Shown piece by piece: positions 21,264-28,764 of a stretch of 36,732 nt of DNA. Where the stretch lies: the IMG/VR virus record IMGVR_UViG_3300029922_000179; one strand, written 5' to 3'. The position numbers and the translations under genes are program-made. The stretch is from a virus. Under the pieces are notes generated by a model. That model was not told the DNA's origin and did not search any database. It worked only from the letters and a program-made list of their open reading frames with translations. The first letter of the stretch is position 1. Each line of letters starts with the position of its first letter.

Positions 21264-22271
21264 TTAAAGGCTAAGCGAGTTGTAACCACTCACCCGGCCC
21301 ATCGCTTTAGGCTTGGTGCATACCAATTCAGCGATGGTCAACAGCACGCCGACGTAACCCAACTGCCAATTCGACAGTGTGGATTCGAAGCCAGTAAAGG
21401 CAAACGAGGCCTGTTCGTGAATGTACAAATTCATGTAATTCGTGTTCGGCAGGTACAAAATACCTTCCGGGCAGTACGGATCTGGATAGATCGGAACACC
21501 TGCCACCATCAGAGCAGTGAAGGCGCTACGCGGGCCGCCCGGATCGCCATCGAAAGAACTATTTGGAGTAACTTGGTAATTTTCTTGACCGACGAAGTCT
21601 TGCGCCAAGAGAGCCCATGTTCCCATACCCATCAGGCCAAAGGTTGGTTTTTCTGCGGAGTTTTTGGTGACGCCAACGATGTACTGGAGCACATTTTGAC
21701 GCGTCGGATTGACCGATCCCGCCGCATATACCTTGGACTTCCAATAGGTGGAGGTATTACGGTTGATGTTGCCGTAAGTGACCAAGTTGGTTCCGTCGTC
21801 GATGGCGCCCGGCAGGCCGATGAATTGCTGGTTGTTGCTGGTGTTGTTGTACAGCGCCGTCGACATCAGATCGCACATGACGTTAGAGGCGTCATTCATA
21901 CGGGCTTCGATCAGCGGAATCACCGCATAGTCAAGCTGCACCGCTGCTTCCATGCCAAGGAATGGGATCGGCACCATCAACAGTTTCAGGTCGAATTCCG
22001 ACAGGAATGCGCCTTGTTGCACGCCAGGCTGAGAAAACGCGCCGGAGTAATCCGACCATTGCCCATTGACGAACTGAGCGCCTTGCACCGGCACCGAAAC
22101 GCTGGATACGCCACCGGAGGCAGGCTGAGAATTGGCAATCAACGCCGCAAGCAGCGGAGTCGAGTTATAGAGTTGCACCACCAGCTTAGGTACAAATGCA
22201 CGGCGAGTGACCGCCGTAAGCTCTGAGGCGGTCGCGCCGCTCGGGATTATGCCTTGACCTAGGACTGCCAT
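21264..22271 (-). CDS. Major capsid protein
   Basis: 335 aa, AGGAG SD, sits directly after the scaffold-like gene. No family signature was verified. Confidence 0.6.
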   Translation of the reverse strand: MAVLGQGIIPSGATASELTAVTRRAFVPKLVVQLYNSTPLLAALIANSQPASGGVSSVSVPVQGAQFVNGQWSDYSGAFSQPGVQQGAFLSEFDLKLLMVPIPFLGMEAAVQLDYAVIPLIEARMNDASNVMCDLMSTALYNNTSNNQQFIGLPGAIDDGTNLVTYGNINRNTSTYWKSKVYAAGSVNPTRQNVLQYIVGVTKNSAEKPTFGLMGMGTWALLAQDFVGQENYQVTPNSSFDGDPGGPRSAFTALMVAGVPIYPDPYCPEGILYLPNTNYMNLYIHEQASFAFTGFESTLSNWQLGYVGVLLTIAELVCTKPKAMGRVSGYNSLSL

Positions 22272-22820: not shown

Positions 22821-22850
22821 GATTTTTCTCCTGACGGTGAGATGGTTGAA

Positions 22851-23030
22851 TTAGCGAGTGCCGCCAGGCTTTTTCAAGCTCATGTCGTTGCGGCTAATGG
22901 AATTACCCAGCTTCATTTGGCCCACTTCAGGCAAACGAGGTGGATTGACCATCGCACCATGCACACGCTTGTCCGACAGCGGCTGACGGATCGGCGCATT
23001 CTTTGGCTTGAACAATGTGTTTTCAGACAT
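22851..23030 (-). CDS. Small basic protein (59 aa; below the ORF-track cutoff)
   Basis: Hand translation gives MSENTLFKPKNAPIRQPLSDKRVHGAMVNPPRLPEVGQMKLGNSISRNDMSLKKPGGTR. AGGAGC lies 4 nt upstream of the ATG. Confidence 0.5.
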   Translation of the reverse strand: MSENTLFKPKNAPIRQPLSDKRVHGAMVNPPRLPEVGQMKLGNSISRNDMSLKKPGGTR

Positions 23031-23038
23031 GATAGCTC

Positions 23039-23497
23039 CTACATAGCGCCGGGAGGTTTTGGCCCGGCAGGTTGTTGTAACGCTTTTTGCATCGGGCTTG
23101 CTCCACCCGCCTGCGGTAAATTTTGCATCAATTGCATTAGTTCAGCCGGGACTAGATCTTGCGATTTATTGCGCGCCGCGCCAAATTTTCCACTCATTTT
23201 ACGCAAAACATCAAGAATTGTCTGACCTTCTTCCGATTCCGAGCCGAGCGCTGGCAGACTTTGCTCTAAAAGATCCATCGCCAGTGACACATTGATCAGC
23301 GCATTTTGCTTGTCGCCAGCTTTAGGCTGTGGCGTCGACATCGGCGCAGATACAGGCATGGCGCCGCCAGGCGCGCCAGCGCCAGCAGCACCAGGCATAC
23401 CCGGAATACCAGCAGGTGCTCCGGGCGCAGGAGGGGCAGCAGACTTTCCGGCACCGCCAGCAACCAAATTCATCAATTCAGGCGGCATATCAGGCAT
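23039..23497 (-). CDS. Pro/Ala/Gly-rich head-module protein (152 aa)
   Basis: ORF track. Low-complexity N-terminal half and helical C-terminal half. Confidence 0.5.
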   Translation of the reverse strand: MPDMPPELMNLVAGGAGKSAAPPAPGAPAGIPGMPGAAGAGAPGGAMPVSAPMSTPQPKAGDKQNALINVSLAMDLLEQSLPALGSESEEGQTILDVLRKMSGKFGAARNKSQDLVPAELMQLMQNLPQAGGASPMQKALQQPAGPKPPGAM

Positions 23498-23562
23498 TAG
23501 GACATCCCATTAATAACGATGAACACCATCGCGCCAGCAAGGTAGAGGTACAGAAAACTCAT
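23497..23562 (-). CDS. 21-aa hydrophobic micro-ORF (MSFLYLYLAGAMVFIVINGMS)
   Basis: Its ATG overlaps the upstream stop (ATGA) and its TAA overlaps the downstream ATG (TAATG), so it exactly fills the gap between two genes. Confidence 0.3.
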   Translation of the reverse strand: MSFLYLYLAGAMVFIVINGMS

Positions 23563-24014
23563 GGCAACGTATCTCCCCACAGATAAACATCAACGGTTGC
23601 GGCCGCGCCCTGCGCAGTGCCTACGCGGAAATACAACACATTAGCTTGAGTCGTTTGGTTTAACACCACCGCCTGCGTCGCCAATGTCATATCCAGGTTG
23701 ACGGTCGAGGAGGTCAGAGAAGAAAGAGCTGCGGACGTGACAAGCGTCGTGCCTGTACCACCGGCCGCAGTAAAAACGCCTGCGGTAGCAGTCGTCAGGG
23801 AGATCGAAGCATTGTTGAGCTGAACGCCACGGAGAACAAAGTTCGATCCGGGCAGAAGGAATAGGGGTATTGCAATATCGGTGTTGGTCTGATTAACGTT
23901 CACGCCTAGCATGACGCCAACGACTCTGCGGATTCCACACGTTTTCGCATCAAAGCAAAAAACTTGCTCTCTCGCATTTGCAACTGCGTTACCGCCGTAA
24001 GCGACTGGATTCAT
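23559..24014 (-). CDS. Head-module structural protein (151 aa)
   Basis: ORF track. Beta-rich Thr/Val/Ala/Asn composition. Confidence 0.5.
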   Translation of the reverse strand: MNPVAYGGNAVANAREQVFCFDAKTCGIRRVVGVMLGVNVNQTNTDIAIPLFLLPGSNFVLRGVQLNNASISLTTATAGVFTAAGGTGTTLVTSAALSSLTSSTVNLDMTLATQAVVLNQTTQANVLYFRVGTAQGAAATVDVYLWGDTLP

Positions 24015-24107
24015 TTGTCGGACTCCACATTAATTTCATGAATGCTATACCAATACCGTATAGAAATCAATTAATCTAATCAAAAGAGTCTGACGCCTCT
24101 TTCTTGA

Positions 24108-24149
24108 TTACTTGCGACCTTTACGGCCTTTGCGCTTGCCTCGTGCCAT
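24108..24149 (-). CDS. 13-aa hyper-basic micro-ORF (MARGKRKGRKGRK)
   Basis: ATGGAGGGCATC precedes the ATG (GGAGG SD, 5-nt spacer). Stop is TAA. Confidence 0.4.
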   Translation of the reverse strand: MARGKRKGRKGRK

Positions 24150-24194
24150 GATGCCCTCCATATCGATTGAGATTGGTAAAAATTTCACACCCGA

Positions 24195-24236
24195 TTAACG
24201 GCCGTGCTTACGACCTTTCTTGCGACCTTTACGCAT
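24195..24236 (-). CDS. 13-aa hyper-basic micro-ORF (MRKGRKKGRKHGR)
   Basis: ATGGAGGATACT precedes the ATG (GGAGGA SD). Stop is TAA. A paralogue-like twin lies 87 nt downstream. Confidence 0.4.
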   Translation of the reverse strand: MRKGRKKGRKHGR

Positions 24237-24302
24237 AGTATCCTCCATAGTAGGAAACGGCCACCGTTTTATAGGCAGGCAGCCAACACCTTCCGTGCGA
24301 AT

Positions 24303-25946
24303 TTATTTTACCTGCTTTAATCCGGCGGCGCCACTATGTTTTGCTTGCTCCATTTGCAACTCTTGCTGCGCCTTTGCTTTGGAGGCAGCCGCCTCCTTCT
24401 CCTCCATATTTTTCAGACGGCGCAATAGGACCTCCTTCATCGGCGGGTCGACCATCTCCAGGTAGCTCTCCCTGTCTATCGCCTTAGCCTTCAGCAATTC
24501 CGCTGCGATGGCTTTTTGATCTTCCACGAAGAGCGGACTATTGCTGTGTCCGTCCACTTTCACAACGCTATCGTCAGGGAACTGGTTGGCGATGAACGTC
24601 ACGCCGTCCTCATCTTTGTACTTTCGATCGTCGTAGACGCGCTTGGCCTTGAGGTACAGCGTAGCCATTTTCTCCAGAGCGTCCTCAATAATCAGGGCGC
24701 GTTTTTTGATGCGCGCCGAGCCAAGCCGGGCTAATTCCGACGTCTGACGTCCAGAACGCACGCCAGATTCGCCCTTGCCTTGCAGAAGATTTTGCAGGCC
24801 GGAGCGCTCTGCGAACATCTCATCAATTTGAGACAGTTCGGAAAAAATGTCACTTGGCATGGTGGGCGGCAACTCTTGAAATTTTCCCATAGGATCGTTG
24901 ACGGACAGATATGATCCTGCCATGCCAAACCCATAGAGTTTTTCATCTTGGATGCCGGAGCCGGTGTACACCTTGGGCGGAGAAACCTGTTTGTCGAGTA
25001 ATTTTCGCATCTGGGCGACACGCTCATTACGCCATTTTTGTAGTCCAACCAGACCAAACACTTCCGACATGCCCCAGTAGTAGCCGTACATCGGGTTAGG
25101 GCAAATTTGCACGAATGGATTTTCGCCGTCGACAAAGAAGTTTTTGCGATCGTAGATCGTCACGCGGTTGTCCGCGCGCGTGATTACTCGGTAATCGTTG
25201 ATTTCGTCATCCCAGATCCAGAGCTCTTGCATTTCCACCAGTTCCTCATCGACCTGCGGTGCCATCTGGTATCGTGCGCCGAAATTCAGATCAACATTAC
25301 CTTGGATATTGGGCATGCTGTTGACCAGGATGATGCGATCGAGGCCGGTATTTTCAGTGGAAAGGTCTTTCTTCTCTGGCTGAATACTTGCCAATATCTT
25401 TTCGATGTTAGGATGATTGATAAGGTCGTTGCGCAACTGCGAGCGCGTGGTGTAATAGCAGTGCACCATCGCCTCCTGCCGGTCGGTGAACGACATGTCT
25501 TCTCGAAACACGCCGAACATATGGGGTTCTACCACAAAAGGGTGGATATCTTTGCCGCGCATGACCAGCTTGATCATGACGGTATTGTAGACAAGCGCCC
25601 AGGTTAGGCCCTGCATGAACACCATGTCGGCGCCGCTATTCAACCACTCGGTATTGATCGCCTTAGACAGCGGCGGTATTTTCTTCCATTCATCCTCATG
25701 CACCTCCGGCCCGACGTGGATAGTGAAGTTGGTCGTTTCCGAAGAAAACAGGAAGGAGGTCAGCAGATCGACGGTCGGATATATTTTGTTGTACGGCGTT
25801 TCTGCCTCATCCGGCCCGGCGCCGTGCAGGAAATATCCCCGATAGGAAGCGTAATCGCGCGCGCGTTCCTCCCGAGAAAACAGACATTTACTGATAATTT
25901 CCTCAATGAACCGCTCACGCTCGACATCTTCCTTGGGAATTTTCAT
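24303..25946 (-). CDS. Portal protein
   Basis: 547 aa. Position between terminase and the head genes. ATGA overlap with the upstream gene. Family not verified. Confidence 0.6.
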   Translation of the reverse strand: MKIPKEDVERERFIEEIISKCLFSREERARDYASYRGYFLHGAGPDEAETPYNKIYPTVDLLTSFLFSSETTNFTIHVGPEVHEDEWKKIPPLSKAINTEWLNSGADMVFMQGLTWALVYNTVMIKLVMRGKDIHPFVVEPHMFGVFREDMSFTDRQEAMVHCYYTTRSQLRNDLINHPNIEKILASIQPEKKDLSTENTGLDRIILVNSMPNIQGNVDLNFGARYQMAPQVDEELVEMQELWIWDDEINDYRVITRADNRVTIYDRKNFFVDGENPFVQICPNPMYGYYWGMSEVFGLVGLQKWRNERVAQMRKLLDKQVSPPKVYTGSGIQDEKLYGFGMAGSYLSVNDPMGKFQELPPTMPSDIFSELSQIDEMFAERSGLQNLLQGKGESGVRSGRQTSELARLGSARIKKRALIIEDALEKMATLYLKAKRVYDDRKYKDEDGVTFIANQFPDDSVVKVDGHSNSPLFVEDQKAIAAELLKAKAIDRESYLEMVDPPMKEVLLRRLKNMEEKEAAASKAKAQQELQMEQAKHSGAAGLKQVK

Positions 25947-26483: not shown

Positions 26484-26975
26484 TTATTTCTGCCTTGGTA
26501 ATGGGAGTGTTTGCTCCCGTTTAAAAATTTCCATGAATTTCGGCATCGCTGTCGGCGCTTGTTTTTGCTCAAACGTTCTCACTGTTGGCCCTGCTGCGCT
26601 CATCACAATTTTTCTAATTAACGGAATCGGCTTTGTCGGCGTATCGGAATAGATTATTTTACCATCGACCTTCTTAATCATGCCGCATTCGCATTTGAGC
26701 AGGAATCGTGACAAAATCACGTGCTTTTTATGACTCAATTTCCGCTGGCGGTGCTTATCTTGAACATTAGGACGTCCATGCACGATATCTAGCAGGCACA
26801 TGCGGTAGACCTTCGTCAGTAGGAAAACATCATTGATCGTCATTTTGTTTCTGTAAAACTGAAGGTCGATCGATGGTGGAACGTGTTTTTCCCATGGCGT
26901 GTACATTTTATTGAGAATGATACGCATCTCATCCCGAGACAGCAATTTAAAATCGTCGTCATATTCGCTAGCCAT
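26484..26975 (-). CDS. Hypothetical protein (163 aa)
   Basis: ORF track. 8-nt overlap with the terminase stop. Confidence 0.5.
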   Translation of the reverse strand: MASEYDDDFKLLSRDEMRIILNKMYTPWEKHVPPSIDLQFYRNKMTINDVFLLTKVYRMCLLDIVHGRPNVQDKHRQRKLSHKKHVILSRFLLKCECGMIKKVDGKIIYSDTPTKPIPLIRKIVMSAAGPTVRTFEQKQAPTAMPKFMEIFKREQTLPLPRQK

Positions 26976-28764
26976 TCTTCAACCCCATTTTTTTCAGGTA
27001 GTTGGTCACGGCATTACTTTGTACGCCCTCGTTTTGCGTGTCAAGTCGGTGGGCAACACCACGGGTAACCCCTGAGGTAATCATGCGCGCGCGGATGAAA
27101 TCACACCAAGCAACGTGCGCGAGCGCGGCAGCGATAACACGGTCATCCTTGCCACGACCGGGCGCTCCGATAGAGCCGTCATCTCGAATGACGTTCTTCA
27201 TTTCATCTAGCAACCCGGTGCTGGCGACAACAGAGGTCCCTCGCTCGAAACAATCCTTGTAGTAATTTAGCATACGCTCTTTCGAGTCATAGGATGTTTT
27301 CCAGTGGTATGCAGATGGTGCGCCGAATGAATCGACTCGCTTGTACAGGTAGTTTTCCATGTTCATGAGCACCTGGAGAACTCCGCGCCAGCTATCCTCC
27401 GTGATCATAGAGGCTTGGCGCTTCATGCTTTGCATCTCTAACCAGACGGCTTGCCCAGGGCCATTAATTTCCAGATTGACCATGACATTCTTGTAGGCGC
27501 CAGCTAGGTACATCAAGATCCAGGCGAACTGGTATGGGGAACAATCAGGCGTATTGAACTCGGCAACCTGGTCCATGCCATCGGCGTAGCATCGCCAGAT
27601 CGAAATGCAAAACCGATCGGCCCATTCGGAGGAGCCATAAGCCGGGTCGGCGCCGAGCACATAGAACGCGTTGGTTTTTGGAAATTCCCAGATGCGGGTA
27701 GACGCCAGCTTTTCCCCACACTCCAGGAATTCTGTGTCAGTGAAATTATCGTTGAGCACAAACCTAAAGGTGTGATTGGATAGCTGCTTGGCTTTTTTCT
27801 GTTCGTCGTTCAACCGTGTCGAGTTGAAAAACTGGGAGCCAGACAGAACAAAGGCATAATCCTCTGTCGGTGGAAATTCCTGGTACATCAACTGATCATC
27901 CTTGATGACCTCGTTCATCTTGTAGCGCCACCAGGCGATCTGCTCATCATCGATATCAAAGTCGTAGAGTTTCTTGACTTCGCGCACCCACTTCTTTTCC
28001 TCCGGATACATCTTCCCGTCCCAATAGACAGAATGGATGGCCGAGCCTTTTTTGCATCGGTATAGCTCATTGCGCCACCATCCAATGAAGATGGCCTTTT
28101 GCACTGCGGAATGTTTCGCGGTCTGCCATGTATCGTAAAAGTGGTTGTACCCGTGGGCCGTGGTTTCCCAGACATAGAACCGGTTTGGGTGTGTTTCAGC
28201 CAGCGACGCCTCCAGGGAAGCGATACCTTCCTCGTCGCCCCAGAAAGCAACCTCTGTTGCATGTAGGAAAGTCAGACCCTTACCGCGACCGAGGCCGGAA
28301 TTTTTTCGCGTACCGGCCACCTGATAGTTGAACCGGGATCGGTTCTTGGCGATCATCTGAGTCCGGTTGTGCGACTCGATCGGCACCTTGAATTTCTTCG
28401 GCAGACTATCGATATACATCGACAAGGTGGCCTTGATCATGTCCCGTGTTGGCTCATCGTGCGTAACGAGAGATCCAGACATGCCTGAATATTTGAACAA
28501 CCAATAAAGGTCGAGCGCCAACGTGATCGTCGTGATCATCACTTGACGACCCTTGAGCACCACAAATGTGTGGATGCCGTTTTTCAATCCATCGGCTACC
28601 TGCTCAATGAAATAGCGCTGTGTTCCAGTTATACGATCCTGCGTCAACCGGATAGGTCCGAATTCCTTGGTATCAATCTGGAGAGTCGCGCAGAATTCCC
28701 AGAAATTATCCACATTAAAATCAGAAGTCGACAGTGGCGGGATCTCTACTATTTCATCGCTCAT
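26968..28764 (-). CDS. terL: Terminase large subunit
   Basis: LKGRQVMITT (Walker-A-like), LTFLHATEVAFW (Walker-B/coupling-like), and the C-terminal nuclease motifs VLGADPAYGSSEWADRF and GKDDRVIAAALA. Confidence 0.8.
   Translation of the reverse strand: MSDEIVEIPPLSTSDFNVDNFWEFCATLQIDTKEFGPIRLTQDRITGTQRYFIEQVADGLKNGIHTFVVLKGRQVMITTITLALDLYWLFKYSGMSGSLVTHDEPTRDMIKATLSMYIDSLPKKFKVPIESHNRTQMIAKNRSRFNYQVAGTRKNSGLGRGKGLTFLHATEVAFWGDEEGIASLEASLAETHPNRFYVWETTAHGYNHFYDTWQTAKHSAVQKAIFIGWWRNELYRCKKGSAIHSVYWDGKMYPEEKKWVREVKKLYDFDIDDEQIAWWRYKMNEVIKDDQLMYQEFPPTEDYAFVLSGSQFFNSTRLNDEQKKAKQLSNHTFRFVLNDNFTDTEFLECGEKLASTRIWEFPKTNAFYVLGADPAYGSSEWADRFCISIWRCYADGMDQVAEFNTPDCSPYQFAWILMYLAGAYKNVMVNLEINGPGQAVWLEMQSMKRQASMITEDSWRGVLQVLMNMENYLYKRVDSFGAPSAYHWKTSYDSKERMLNYYKDCFERGTSVVASTGLLDEMKNVIRDDGSIGAPGRGKDDRVIAAALAHVAWCDFIRARMITSGVTRGVAHRLDTQNEGVQSNAVTNYLKKMGLKNG

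What the first reader, a model, noticed from the sequence alone, without database searches (positions are those of the whole stretch)
24108..24236. Two tandem 13-aa hyper-basic micro-ORFs with strong SD sites between the portal and head genes
The 289-nt gap after the portal gene is otherwise the only sizeable gap in the late operon. It contains ATGGAGGATACT-ATG-MRKGRKKGRKHGR-TAA (24236..24195) and ATGGAGGGCATC-ATG-MARGKRKGRKGRK-TAA (24149..24108). Both peptides are about 70 percent Lys/Arg, share the KGRK motif and share the sequence ATGGAGG before the spacer. Established analogy: microvirus protein J is a tiny, highly basic peptide packaged with the DNA to neutralise charge. Inference: these could be packaged DNA-condensing counter-ions or portal or terminase cofactors in a dsDNA phage, which would be unusual. 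Alternatively they could be decoy leader ORFs that regulate downstream head-gene translation.
Basis: partly seen in the sequence, partly recalled or inferred. Interest (0 to 1): 0.62.

Follow-up and report, generated by a model that had tools for sequence, protein, structure and literature searches.

The report
Conserved polycationic micro-genes after phage portal
Two 13-codon genes for almost pure lysine/arginine peptides sit after the portal gene of this uncultured phage. They are kept, with their flanking RNA structures, in hundreds of related phages, so they are real unannotated genes, most likely for a bulk DNA-binding polycation, though that function is not yet shown.

Summary
Two minus-strand ORFs (24236..24195 and 24149..24108) each have GGAGG, 5 nt, ATG and a TAA stop. 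They encode MRKGRKKGRKHGR and MARGKRKGRKGRK (8 of 13 Lys+Arg, net +8). They are the only such ORFs in the window; shuffles give 0.02.

They belong to a conserved, unannotated micro-gene family. In about 230 related uncultured phage contigs (portal 45-84% identical), 1-3 such ORFs (9-17 aa, mostly +7/+8) lie on the portal strand between the portal and head genes. The count is 151 on that strand against 2 on the other, and 70 of 71 usable metagenome loci carry them.

- **Selection:** pN/pS is 0.3-0.5.
- **Expression signals:** the Shine-Dalgarno (SD) sites, codon choice and TAA stops fit high output.
- **Flanking RNA:** covariation supports an H-type pseudoknot upstream and a hairpin with an invariant GCGUCAGA loop downstream.

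These are therefore real peptide genes. The decoy-leader reading is disfavoured, and portal read-through is rejected.

Function is not shown. The best guess is a bulk polycation for phage DNA during packaging or in the virion (about 0.4). The rivals are RNA or ribosome binding. I found no paper, Rfam or PDB match, and the peptides are too short for the protein-family tools.

The scan found this family before on other DNA (e1-3263717, e1-3433493, e1-2918045).

The parts
24303..25946 (-). Portal gene (547 aa), upstream neighbour
   Evidence: PHROG portal families and Pfam SU10_portal. 2247 homologues were found.
24259..24291 (-). H-type pseudoknot upstream of the SD of ORF a. S2 pairs GGCUGCC 24284..24278 with GGUGGCC 24265..24259. 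S1 is only 3 bp here (AGG 24291..24289 with CCU 24275..24273).
   Evidence: In the alignment of 33 relatives, 97% of cells pair, 4 pairs show compensatory change, and 0 of 500 shuffles reach the observed values. The window copy has a weakened S1, read directly from the sequence.
24242..24246 (-). Shine-Dalgarno GGAGG of ORF a, 5 nt before the ATG
   Evidence: 99% of family members have an SD core, and the modal spacing is 6 nt.
24195..24236 (-). Micro-ORF a: MRKGRKKGRKHGR, TAA stop, net charge +8
   Evidence: Homologous ORFs are present in relatives.
24160..24194 (-). Unstructured spacer between the two ORFs; the SD of ORF b follows directly
   Evidence: The 24150..24200 stretch that contains it folds less well than its shuffles, z = +1.7.
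24155..24159 (-). Shine-Dalgarno GGAGG of ORF b
24108..24149 (-). Micro-ORF b: MARGKRKGRKGRK, TAA stop, net charge +8
   Evidence: Homologues are present in relatives.
24077..24110 (-). Hairpin that begins at the stop codon of ORF b. The apical motif GCGUCAGA (24096..24089) is invariant.
   Evidence: MFE is -9.7 kcal/mol, z = -2.6. Nine relatives have different stems and the same loop: 92% of cells pair and 7 of 8 pairs show compensatory change. In L021 it is followed by a T-run.
24030..24070 (-). Conserved block TTGATT (24070..24065), 15 nt, TATAGC (24049..24044), then ATTCAxGAAATTAAT. It is promoter-like but has a short spacer.
   Evidence: It is nearly invariant among relatives with portals 71-84% identical. 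The sigma-70 scan does not call it.
23559..24014 (-). Next gene (151 aa, no family match), the first of the head-assembly genes that lead to the major capsid protein at 21264..22271
   Evidence: The gene order is the same in all relatives.

Best explanation
The two ORFs are real, translated micro-genes of a conserved, unannotated family. Each is a compact expression cassette: a structured 5' element, a strong SD, 13 preferred codons, a TAA stop and a 3' hairpin. The cassettes make net +8 Lys/Arg oligopeptides in bulk, together with the head genes late in infection.

The peptides act in trans as polycations. Their most likely target is the phage's own DNA. They would neutralise phosphate charge during terminase-driven packaging and/or stay in the filled head as counter-ions that cannot leak out, like a mini-protamine.

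What is shown: the ORFs, their conservation, selection on the peptide, the high-expression signals and the flanking RNA structures. What is inferred: translation level, DNA as the target, and presence in the virion.
For: 1. The ORFs are unique in the window; shuffles give 0.02.
2. 1-3 homologous ORFs are present in nearly every relative with enough downstream DNA (portal 45-84% identical): IMG/VR, GenBank metagenomic phages, closer Logan contigs, and 70 of 71 usable JGI metagenome loci. They are always on the portal strand between portal and head genes, 151 against 2. All 119 extra contigs found with an exact ORF pattern carry the same portal and/or capsid genes.
3. The coding signature is clear. 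pN/pS is 0.32-0.48, with a two- to three-fold excess of third-position change and pS near saturation. Single peptides are encoded by up to 5 different DNA sequences.
4. Composition is tightly held: R 35%, K 30%, the rest A/G/S/T/Y/M/H, with essentially no acidic, bulky hydrophobic or Pro residues. 56 of 70 unique peptides are 12-14 aa, and 59 of 70 carry +7 or +8. Sequence and length drift quickly even at 71-84% portal identity, as expected for an electrostatic ligand.
5. The signals point to high output. 75% have an SD of at least 5 nt against 13% of long ORFs, with modal spacing of 6 nt. Arg is CGT/CGC in 86% against 55%, GCT is 56% against 27%, and TAA stops are 89% against 54%. There are 1-3 copies per genome.
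About 460-2750 peptides would neutralise 5-30% of the 73,464 phosphates.
7. From established knowledge: in vitro packaging of tailed phages is stimulated by polyamines, and genes directly after the portal gene often encode head-internal DNA-associated proteins such as SPP1 gp7 and the MuF family.
Against: - There is no direct evidence of translation, DNA binding or virion association.
- Copy number or total charge does not rise with genome length (rho -0.31, p 0.14, 24 near-complete contigs).
- Within each paralogue type, Lys and Arg positions are largely fixed. This hints at more specific recognition than pure charge. It may partly reflect the 2-3 base changes needed between AAR and CGN codons.
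- The tight association with conserved RNA structures could equally point to an RNA target.
- No fusion of a polycationic tail to a head protein was found in distant relatives that could tie the peptide to the capsid interior.
- A free 13-mer would bind any nucleic acid in the cell, and no targeting mechanism is evident.
Confidence: 0.4

Rival explanations
1. The peptides are RNA ligands of the arginine-rich-motif kind. They would bind the conserved structures around their own genes (the pseudoknot before the SD, or the GNRA/GUCA-loop hairpins at the stop codons) to auto-regulate translation, stabilise the mini-mRNA or modulate termination before the head genes. Alternatively they bind rRNA, as the tiny ribosomal proteins bS22/eL41 do.
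For: - The pseudoknot and the hairpin are both supported by covariation and are physically locked to the ORFs across the lineage.
- Hairpins after the ORFs carry GNRA or invariant GCGUCAGA loops. The lambda and P22 N peptides recognise GNRA-like boxB loops (established knowledge).
- Lys/Arg positions are fixed within each type.
- bS22 is a roughly 30-aa, 61% Lys/Arg, routinely unannotated rRNA-binding protein (PMC10618245).
Against: - A regulator is needed in small amounts. Yet the genes show multiple copies, the strongest SD sites in the genome and preferred codons.
- A 13-mer has no room for a second domain such as the NusA/RNAP-binding part of N.
- Peptide sequence drifts quickly between close relatives while the loop stays invariant.
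- A profile search of solved structures gave no match.
Confidence: 0.2
2. The peptides are bulk polycations aimed at another polyanion of the host. Candidates are the nucleoid (host shut-off), polyphosphate or nucleotide signals of a defence system, or the envelope at lysis.
For: The same evidence supports a selected, highly expressed polycation. Polycations are known to disorganise Gram-negative outer membranes, and cationic phage lysis peptides exist (established knowledge).
Against: - The position inside the head module, between portal and capsid-assembly genes, is invariant in more than 200 contigs. It is never in the early or lysis regions.
- The peptides have no amphipathic or hydrophobic face.
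Confidence: 0.13
3. The ORFs are cis-acting translated leader or decoy ORFs. Only the act of translation matters (attenuation, ribosome loading, protection from Rho or RNases), and the peptide is a by-product.
For: They lie in an otherwise untranslated gap, have strong SD sites, and are followed by a hairpin that is terminator-like in some relatives.
Against: - Selection acts on amino-acid chemistry, not only on an open frame.
- No alternative pairing between the ORF and the hairpin is conserved.
- The downstream genes are head proteins poor in Lys/Arg (MCP 15 of 335), so sensing Lys/Arg supply has no rationale.
- A conserved promoter-like block lies between the ORFs and the next gene.
- The window hairpin has no T-run.
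Confidence: 0.1
4. The pseudoknot drives read-through of the portal stop codon. ORF a would then be the polycationic C-terminal tail of an extended portal protein.
For: In the window, and in L216, ORF a is in frame with the portal gene. The 66 nt between them hold no stop, and a pseudoknot starts 11 nt after the stop.
Against: - Across 207 distinct gaps the first micro-ORF is in frame in 63 (30%, chance level), and in frame and open in only 6.
- The close relatives L217-L219 are out of frame.
- The distance from stop codon to pseudoknot varies from 0 to more than 100 nt.
- Every ORF has its own SD and ATG.
Confidence: 0.02

Closest known systems
Microviridae DNA-binding packaging protein J (phiX174, G4, alpha3). 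Bernal et al. 2004, J Mol Biol 337:1109, cited in PMC3394797.
   Same: A very small, highly basic virus-encoded peptide made late. It is thought to neutralise genome charge during packaging.
   Different: J is about 20-40 aa. It has a hydrophobic/aromatic C-terminal end that anchors it to the coat protein, and it belongs to ssDNA phages without portal or terminase. The peptides here are 9-17 aa with no hydrophobic anchor, in a tailed dsDNA phage. No homology can be tested at this length.
Protamine-like condensers of eukaryotic dsDNA viruses (adenovirus mu and VII, baculovirus P6.9; PMC6755088, PMC6163548)
   Same: Arg/Lys-rich, low-complexity proteins co-packaged with dsDNA. Their composition is conserved rather than their sequence.
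   Different: They are larger (19 to more than 50 aa), often cleaved from precursors, and belong to viruses that do not pump DNA through a portal. Their role in condensation is itself debated (PMC6755088).
Ribosomal micro-proteins bS22 / eL41 / bL37 (PMC10618245)
   Same: Tiny, about 60% Lys/Arg, routinely missed by annotation, and highly expressed. They bind an RNA pocket.
   Different: They are 24-33 aa single helices, cellular and essential. No sequence match was found. The peptides here are half that length and are encoded in a phage head module.
Arginine-rich motif of lambda/P22 N protein with its boxB hairpin
   Same: An Arg-rich segment of about 15-20 aa, and a GNRA-like hairpin encoded nearby.
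   Different: N carries further domains for NusA and RNA polymerase and acts early. Here the whole product is 13 aa, is late, and is apparently made in bulk.
Head-internal proteins encoded directly after the portal gene (SPP1 gp7, MuF family)
   Same: The genomic position, and a presumed association with packaged DNA.
   Different: These are folded proteins of several hundred residues present in a few copies per virion.
Amino-acid attenuator leader peptides (hisL, trpL and the like)
   Same: ORFs of 14-30 codons rich in one or two amino acids, followed by a hairpin.
   Different: Leaders precede biosynthetic genes for the sensed amino acid and overlap alternative terminator/antiterminator stems. 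Neither holds here.

Membership tests
Microviridae protein J | Small, strongly basic peptide | tested here: met
   13 aa, 8 K+R, net +8. The family range is 9-17 aa, mostly +7/+8.
Microviridae protein J | Hydrophobic/aromatic C-terminal segment that tethers the peptide to the coat protein | tested here: not met
   The window peptides have no hydrophobic residue. Family-wide, L, I, V, F and W are virtually absent.
Microviridae protein J | Encoded by an ssDNA microvirus and packaged with ssDNA into a procapsid | tested here: not met
   The neighbours are a large terminase, a portal and a major head protein matching PHROG major-head-protein families, as in a tailed dsDNA phage.
Microviridae protein J | Present in virions bound to the genome | not testable with these tools
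   There is no cultured member, and no proteomic data are available.
Attenuator leader peptide | Alternative terminator/antiterminator stems overlapping the end of the ORF | tested here: not met
   A single hairpin follows ORF b, with no T-run in the window. No conserved alternative pairing was seen.
Attenuator leader peptide | Regulated genes make or need the amino acid encoded in the leader | tested here: not met
   The downstream genes are head proteins with few Lys/Arg.
Arginine-rich-motif antiterminator (lambda N type) | Arg-rich segment plus a cognate GNRA-like hairpin | tested here: inconclusive
   Basic peptides and conserved GNRA/GUCA-loop hairpins co-occur. Binding was not tested.
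Arginine-rich-motif antiterminator (lambda N type) | Additional domain that contacts NusA or RNA polymerase | tested here: not met
   The whole product is 13 aa.
bS22 / eL41 ribosomal micro-proteins | Sequence or profile similarity to solved ribosomal chains | tested here: not met
   A profile of 20 family peptides against all PDB chains gave no hit at E up to 10. The profile has only 14 positions, so sensitivity is low.
bS22 / eL41 ribosomal micro-proteins | 24-33 aa helix bound in the h44/h45 pocket of the ribosome | not testable with these tools
   The length here is 9-17 aa. Binding was not tested.
Known RNA families (for the flanking structures) | Match to an Rfam covariance model | tested here: not met
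   No hit at E up to 1 over 23400..24800.

The most novel reading that the evidence does not exclude
A widespread lineage of tailed dsDNA phages encodes its own mini-protamines. These are +8 oligopeptides made from self-contained, structure-flanked mini-cistrons and loaded with the genome as counter-ions that cannot leak out. The adjacent pseudoknot and GCGUCAGA hairpin would sense free peptide and shut the cassette off. This would be the first dedicated DNA-neutralising peptide of a portal-containing phage, and possibly an adaptation to ion-poor fresh water.
Probability: 0.3. Interest if true: 0.8.

Novelty: new variant of a known kind. Interest (0 to 1): 0.64.

Why it matters
Tailed phages are thought to rely on diffusible ions and host polyamines to offset the charge of tightly packed DNA. 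A dedicated, genome-encoded polycation would add a new component to the best-studied packaging machine in biology.

The peptides are 9-17 aa and, as far as I could find, unannotated in public records. The family shows that strongly selected genes lie below the usual gene-calling length. It also supplies two new covariation-supported RNA motifs.

The hypothesis is cheap to test. The peptides can be synthesised, and the cassette can be moved into laboratory strains.

Tried and rejected
1. **Chance ORFs:** rejected by shuffles and by the strand asymmetry of 151 against 2.
2. **Function at the DNA/RNA sequence level** (for example repeated AAGG): rejected. Synonymous sites are near saturation while the peptide is kept.
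3. **Portal stop-codon read-through driven by the pseudoknot:** the window is in frame and open, but frame conservation across 207 gaps is at chance.
4. **Rosetta-stone fusion** of a polycationic tail to a head protein in distant relatives (Mx8, BUCT555, a distant prophage): none found.
5. **Dose against genome length:** no positive relation.
6. **Cultured relatives or annotation:** only two metagenomic GenBank genomes, where the micro-ORFs are unannotated and spurious opposite-strand ORFs are called instead.
7. **Host:** the own genome is not held. Phage contigs are binned into unrelated MAGs. 300 genomes of one MAG's order gave only distant capsid hits.
8. **Database and literature searches that found nothing:** Rfam, PDB profile, and papers.
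9. **Sigma-70 promoter and terminator scans of the window gap:** nothing called. Relatives gave mixed results.
11. **tRNA in L219:** a tRNA-like insert in the gap of L219 is not called by ARAGORN.

Full report
**Observation.** On the minus strand, the 288-nt gap between the portal gene (24303..25946) and the next gene (23559..24014) holds two 13-codon ORFs.
- ORF a: GGAGG (24246..24242), 5 nt, ATG 24236, stop TAA 24197..24195, peptide MRKGRKKGRKHGR.
- ORF b: GGAGG (24159..24155), 5 nt, ATG 24149, stop TAA 24110..24108, peptide MARGKRKGRKGRK.

Each peptide has 8 Lys+Arg of 13 residues (62%, not about 70%) and a net charge of +8. A scan of both strands of the whole window for ATG ORFs of 9-30 aa with at least 55% K+R finds only these two, and 100 shuffles give a mean of 0.02. 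The other apparent gap in the region (22821..23038) is filled by a 59-aa ORF with its own AGGAG.

**Context.** The window is an uncultured tailed phage, and its length equals the longest contig carrying this portal. The late operon on the minus strand runs:
- large terminase (26968..28764);
- two small genes;
- portal (PHROG portal families, Pfam SU10_portal);
- the gap;
- ORFs of 151, 21, 152, 59 and 177 aa;
- major capsid protein (21264..22271, phrog_9953).

No whole genome is held for it. The phage database contains only two metagenomic relatives from a freshwater spring. In those records the micro-ORFs are present but not annotated, and spurious opposite-strand ORFs are annotated instead.

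**Conservation.** A portal alignment retrieved several sets of loci:
- 80 IMG/VR loci and 6 MAG contigs;
- 80 JGI/ENA metagenome loci;
- four closer Logan contigs, with portals 71-84% identical.

Virtually every locus with enough DNA after the portal gene carries 1-3 ORFs of 9-17 codons that are at least 50% Lys+Arg, on the portal strand, before the head genes. Among the metagenome loci this holds for 70 of 71 usable ones. One apparent exception, L026, has a 20-aa variant, MFEFQPLEARKGRKGRKSRR.

In 582 kb of these loci there are 151 such ORFs on the portal strand and 2 on the other strand. An exact degenerate pattern for the 12-codon type hit at least 120 IMG/VR contigs. All 119 new ones carry the same portal and/or capsid gene in the same order. 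The family is therefore specific to this lineage and universal within it.

More distant phages lack it. These have capsid proteins 24-31% identical (Mx8, BUCT555 and a prophage in a bacterial genome), and they have no gap after the portal gene.

**Selection and expression signals.** There are 97 distinct DNA sequences encoding 75 peptides, and single peptides are encoded by up to five different sequences. In four same-length groups pN/pS is 0.32-0.48. Third-position differences are two- to three-fold in excess, and pS is near saturation at 0.47-0.58. Pairs are not phylogenetically independent, so this is a signature rather than a formal test.

Composition is extreme: R 35%, K 30%, A 9%, G 9%, S 5%, T 4%, Y 3%, M 3% and H 1%. 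Acidic, bulky hydrophobic and Pro residues are practically absent. Of 70 unique peptides, 56 are 12-14 aa long and 59 carry +7 or +8.

| Signal | Micro-ORFs | Long ORFs of the same loci |
|---|---|---|
| SD core present | 99% | not given |
| SD of at least 5 nt | 75% | 13% |
| Arg encoded by CGT/CGC | 86% | 55% |
| Ala encoded by GCT | 56% | 27% |
| Ala encoded by GCG | 0% | 22% |
| TAA stop | 89% | 54% |

The modal SD spacing is 6 nt. These are the marks of a product made in quantity.

Between close relatives (portal 71-84% identical) the peptides change quickly in sequence and length. ORF b, for example, is MARGKRKGRKGRK, MKRSKRKHRR, MARRHRKSRR or MARRSRKHRR. Charge and make-up are kept throughout. 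Within the two paralogue types of the larger clade (MYGRKMKRxRKTRR and M(A)RKxRKGRKxRK), Lys and Arg positions are largely fixed.

**Flanking RNA structures.** A conserved element lies 10-15 nt upstream of the SD of one micro-ORF per genome. In the window it precedes ORF a.
- It fits an H-type pseudoknot. On 33 distinct sequences, 97% of cells pair and 4 pairs show compensatory change (one pair is UA 17, CG 10, AU 2, GC 2). None of 500 shuffles or slid registers reaches the observed values.
- The window copy (24291..24259) keeps the 7-bp S2, but S1 has only 3 bp.
- After the last micro-ORF there is a hairpin with an invariant apical GCGUCAGA and freely co-varying stems. In 9 relatives, 92% of cells pair and 7 of 8 pairs are compensatory.
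- In the window this hairpin spans 24110..24077, starts at the stop codon of ORF b, and has z = -2.6.
- The stretch 24150..24200, which contains the spacer between the ORFs, folds less well than its shuffles (z = +1.7). The second ribosome-binding site is therefore accessible.
- In some relatives the hairpin is followed by a T-run, but not in the window.
- Downstream lies a nearly invariant block: TTGATT, 15 nt, TATAGC, then ATTCAxGAAATTAAT. It is promoter-like but is not called by the consensus scan.
- Rfam has no match.

**What it is.** The evidence shows two real genes for polycationic 13-mers. Each sits in a compact cassette built for high output, fixed in the head-morphogenesis module. 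I put the probability that the peptide itself is the selected product at about 0.85-0.9.

The target is inferred. I favour the phage's own DNA, with overall confidence of about 0.4. The reasons are the module, the late co-expression, the dosage, conservation of composition over sequence, and a feasible charge budget. About 460-2750 peptides would neutralise 5-30% of the 73,464 phosphates.

Established knowledge fits this reading. Polyamines stimulate packaging by terminases. Genes directly after the portal gene often encode head-internal, DNA-associated proteins. Polycations of valence 3 or more condense DNA.

Weaknesses remain. There are no expression or virion data, and copy number does not track genome length (rho -0.31, p 0.14). 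No fusion to a capsid protein was found in distant relatives. The fixed Lys/Arg positions and the attached RNA motifs could mean a specific RNA target.

**Rivals.**
- *RNA ligand of the arginine-rich-motif kind, or a ribosome-binding micro-protein like bS22/eL41* (about 30 aa, 61% K+R, unannotated; PMC10618245). This is plausible at about 0.2, but it fits poorly with bulk-expression signals and with peptide drift against invariant loops.
- *Another host polyanion target*, about 0.13.
- *A purely cis-acting leader or decoy ORF*, about 0.1. It is disfavoured because amino-acid chemistry is selected, no alternative stems are conserved, and the downstream genes are Lys/Arg-poor head proteins.
- *Read-through of the portal stop into ORF a.* This looked attractive for the window, which has 66 nt in frame with no stop and a pseudoknot 11 nt after the stop. 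It fails the comparative test. Only 63 of 207 gaps are in frame, 6 are in frame and open, and L217-L219 are out of frame.

**Comparison with known systems.** The nearest functional analogues are microvirus protein J and the protamine-like condensers of eukaryotic dsDNA viruses (PMC6755088, PMC6163548). Membership in the J family fails on the hydrophobic anchor and on virus type. Homology cannot be assessed at this length.

I found no description of such peptides in tailed phages in the papers searched, including a recent review of phage small proteins (PMC11323111).

Earlier agents of this scan reached the same family independently on other genomes (e1-3263717, e1-3433493, e1-2918045). I re-derived the conservation, tested the pseudoknot and the hairpin myself, and added the codon-usage, SD, read-through, dosage and fusion tests.

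**Verdict.** This is an undescribed, robustly conserved micro-gene family with two undescribed RNA motifs, and its function is inferred rather than shown.

Noticed in passing
L007:4832-4909; L008:5368-5445; L010:5364-5441: A tRNA-Arg(TCT) gene lies directly after the second micro-ORF in L007, and one gene further downstream in L008 and L010. The micro-ORFs themselves use CGT/CGC for Arg almost exclusively, so this tRNA is not needed for them.
   Followed up: partly
L219:4133-4569: A roughly 75-nt tRNA-like insert (acceptor-like ends, T-arm GGTTCGATTCC, ending in CCA) sits in the same gap after the GCGUCAGA hairpin. ARAGORN does not call it.
   Followed up: partly
window 24030-24070 (-): A block TTGATT, 15 nt, TATAGC, then ATTCAxGAAATTAAT is almost invariant among relatives with portals 71-84% identical. 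It may be the late promoter of the head genes with an unusually short spacer, or a regulator binding site.
   Followed up: partly
window, whole: The hexamer CGTCAG (the core of the hairpin loop) occurs 31 times on both strands, against 17.6 +/- 4.4 in shuffles. In related loci it shows no strand bias.
   Followed up: no
window 24237-24302 (-): ORF a is in frame with the portal gene, with no stop in the 66 nt between. The same is true in L216 but not in other relatives.
   Followed up: yes
L026:4845-4907: A 20-aa variant, MFEFQPLEARKGRKGRKSRR, has an acidic/hydrophobic N-terminal extension. It is the only family member seen with a non-basic extension and a possible clue to a docking partner.
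   Followed up: no
L093:4636-4800; L094:4573-4737: In the larger clade, an ORF of about 54 aa overlaps the portal stop (ATAATG) and precedes the first micro-ORF. The pseudoknot then lies between the two micro-ORFs instead of directly after the portal gene.
   Followed up: no
window 22851-23030 (-): A 59-aa ORF with an AGGAG site fills the second apparent gap of the head module. It is called in relatives as a 58-63-aa gene.
   Followed up: partly
L215:2936-3094 (Stenotrophomonas phage BUCT555): A 52-aa protein is encoded directly after the portal-position gene and has a basic C-terminal end (ERKAKVKALRKKP, 7 of 13 K+R). It may be a distant positional analogue.
   Followed up: no
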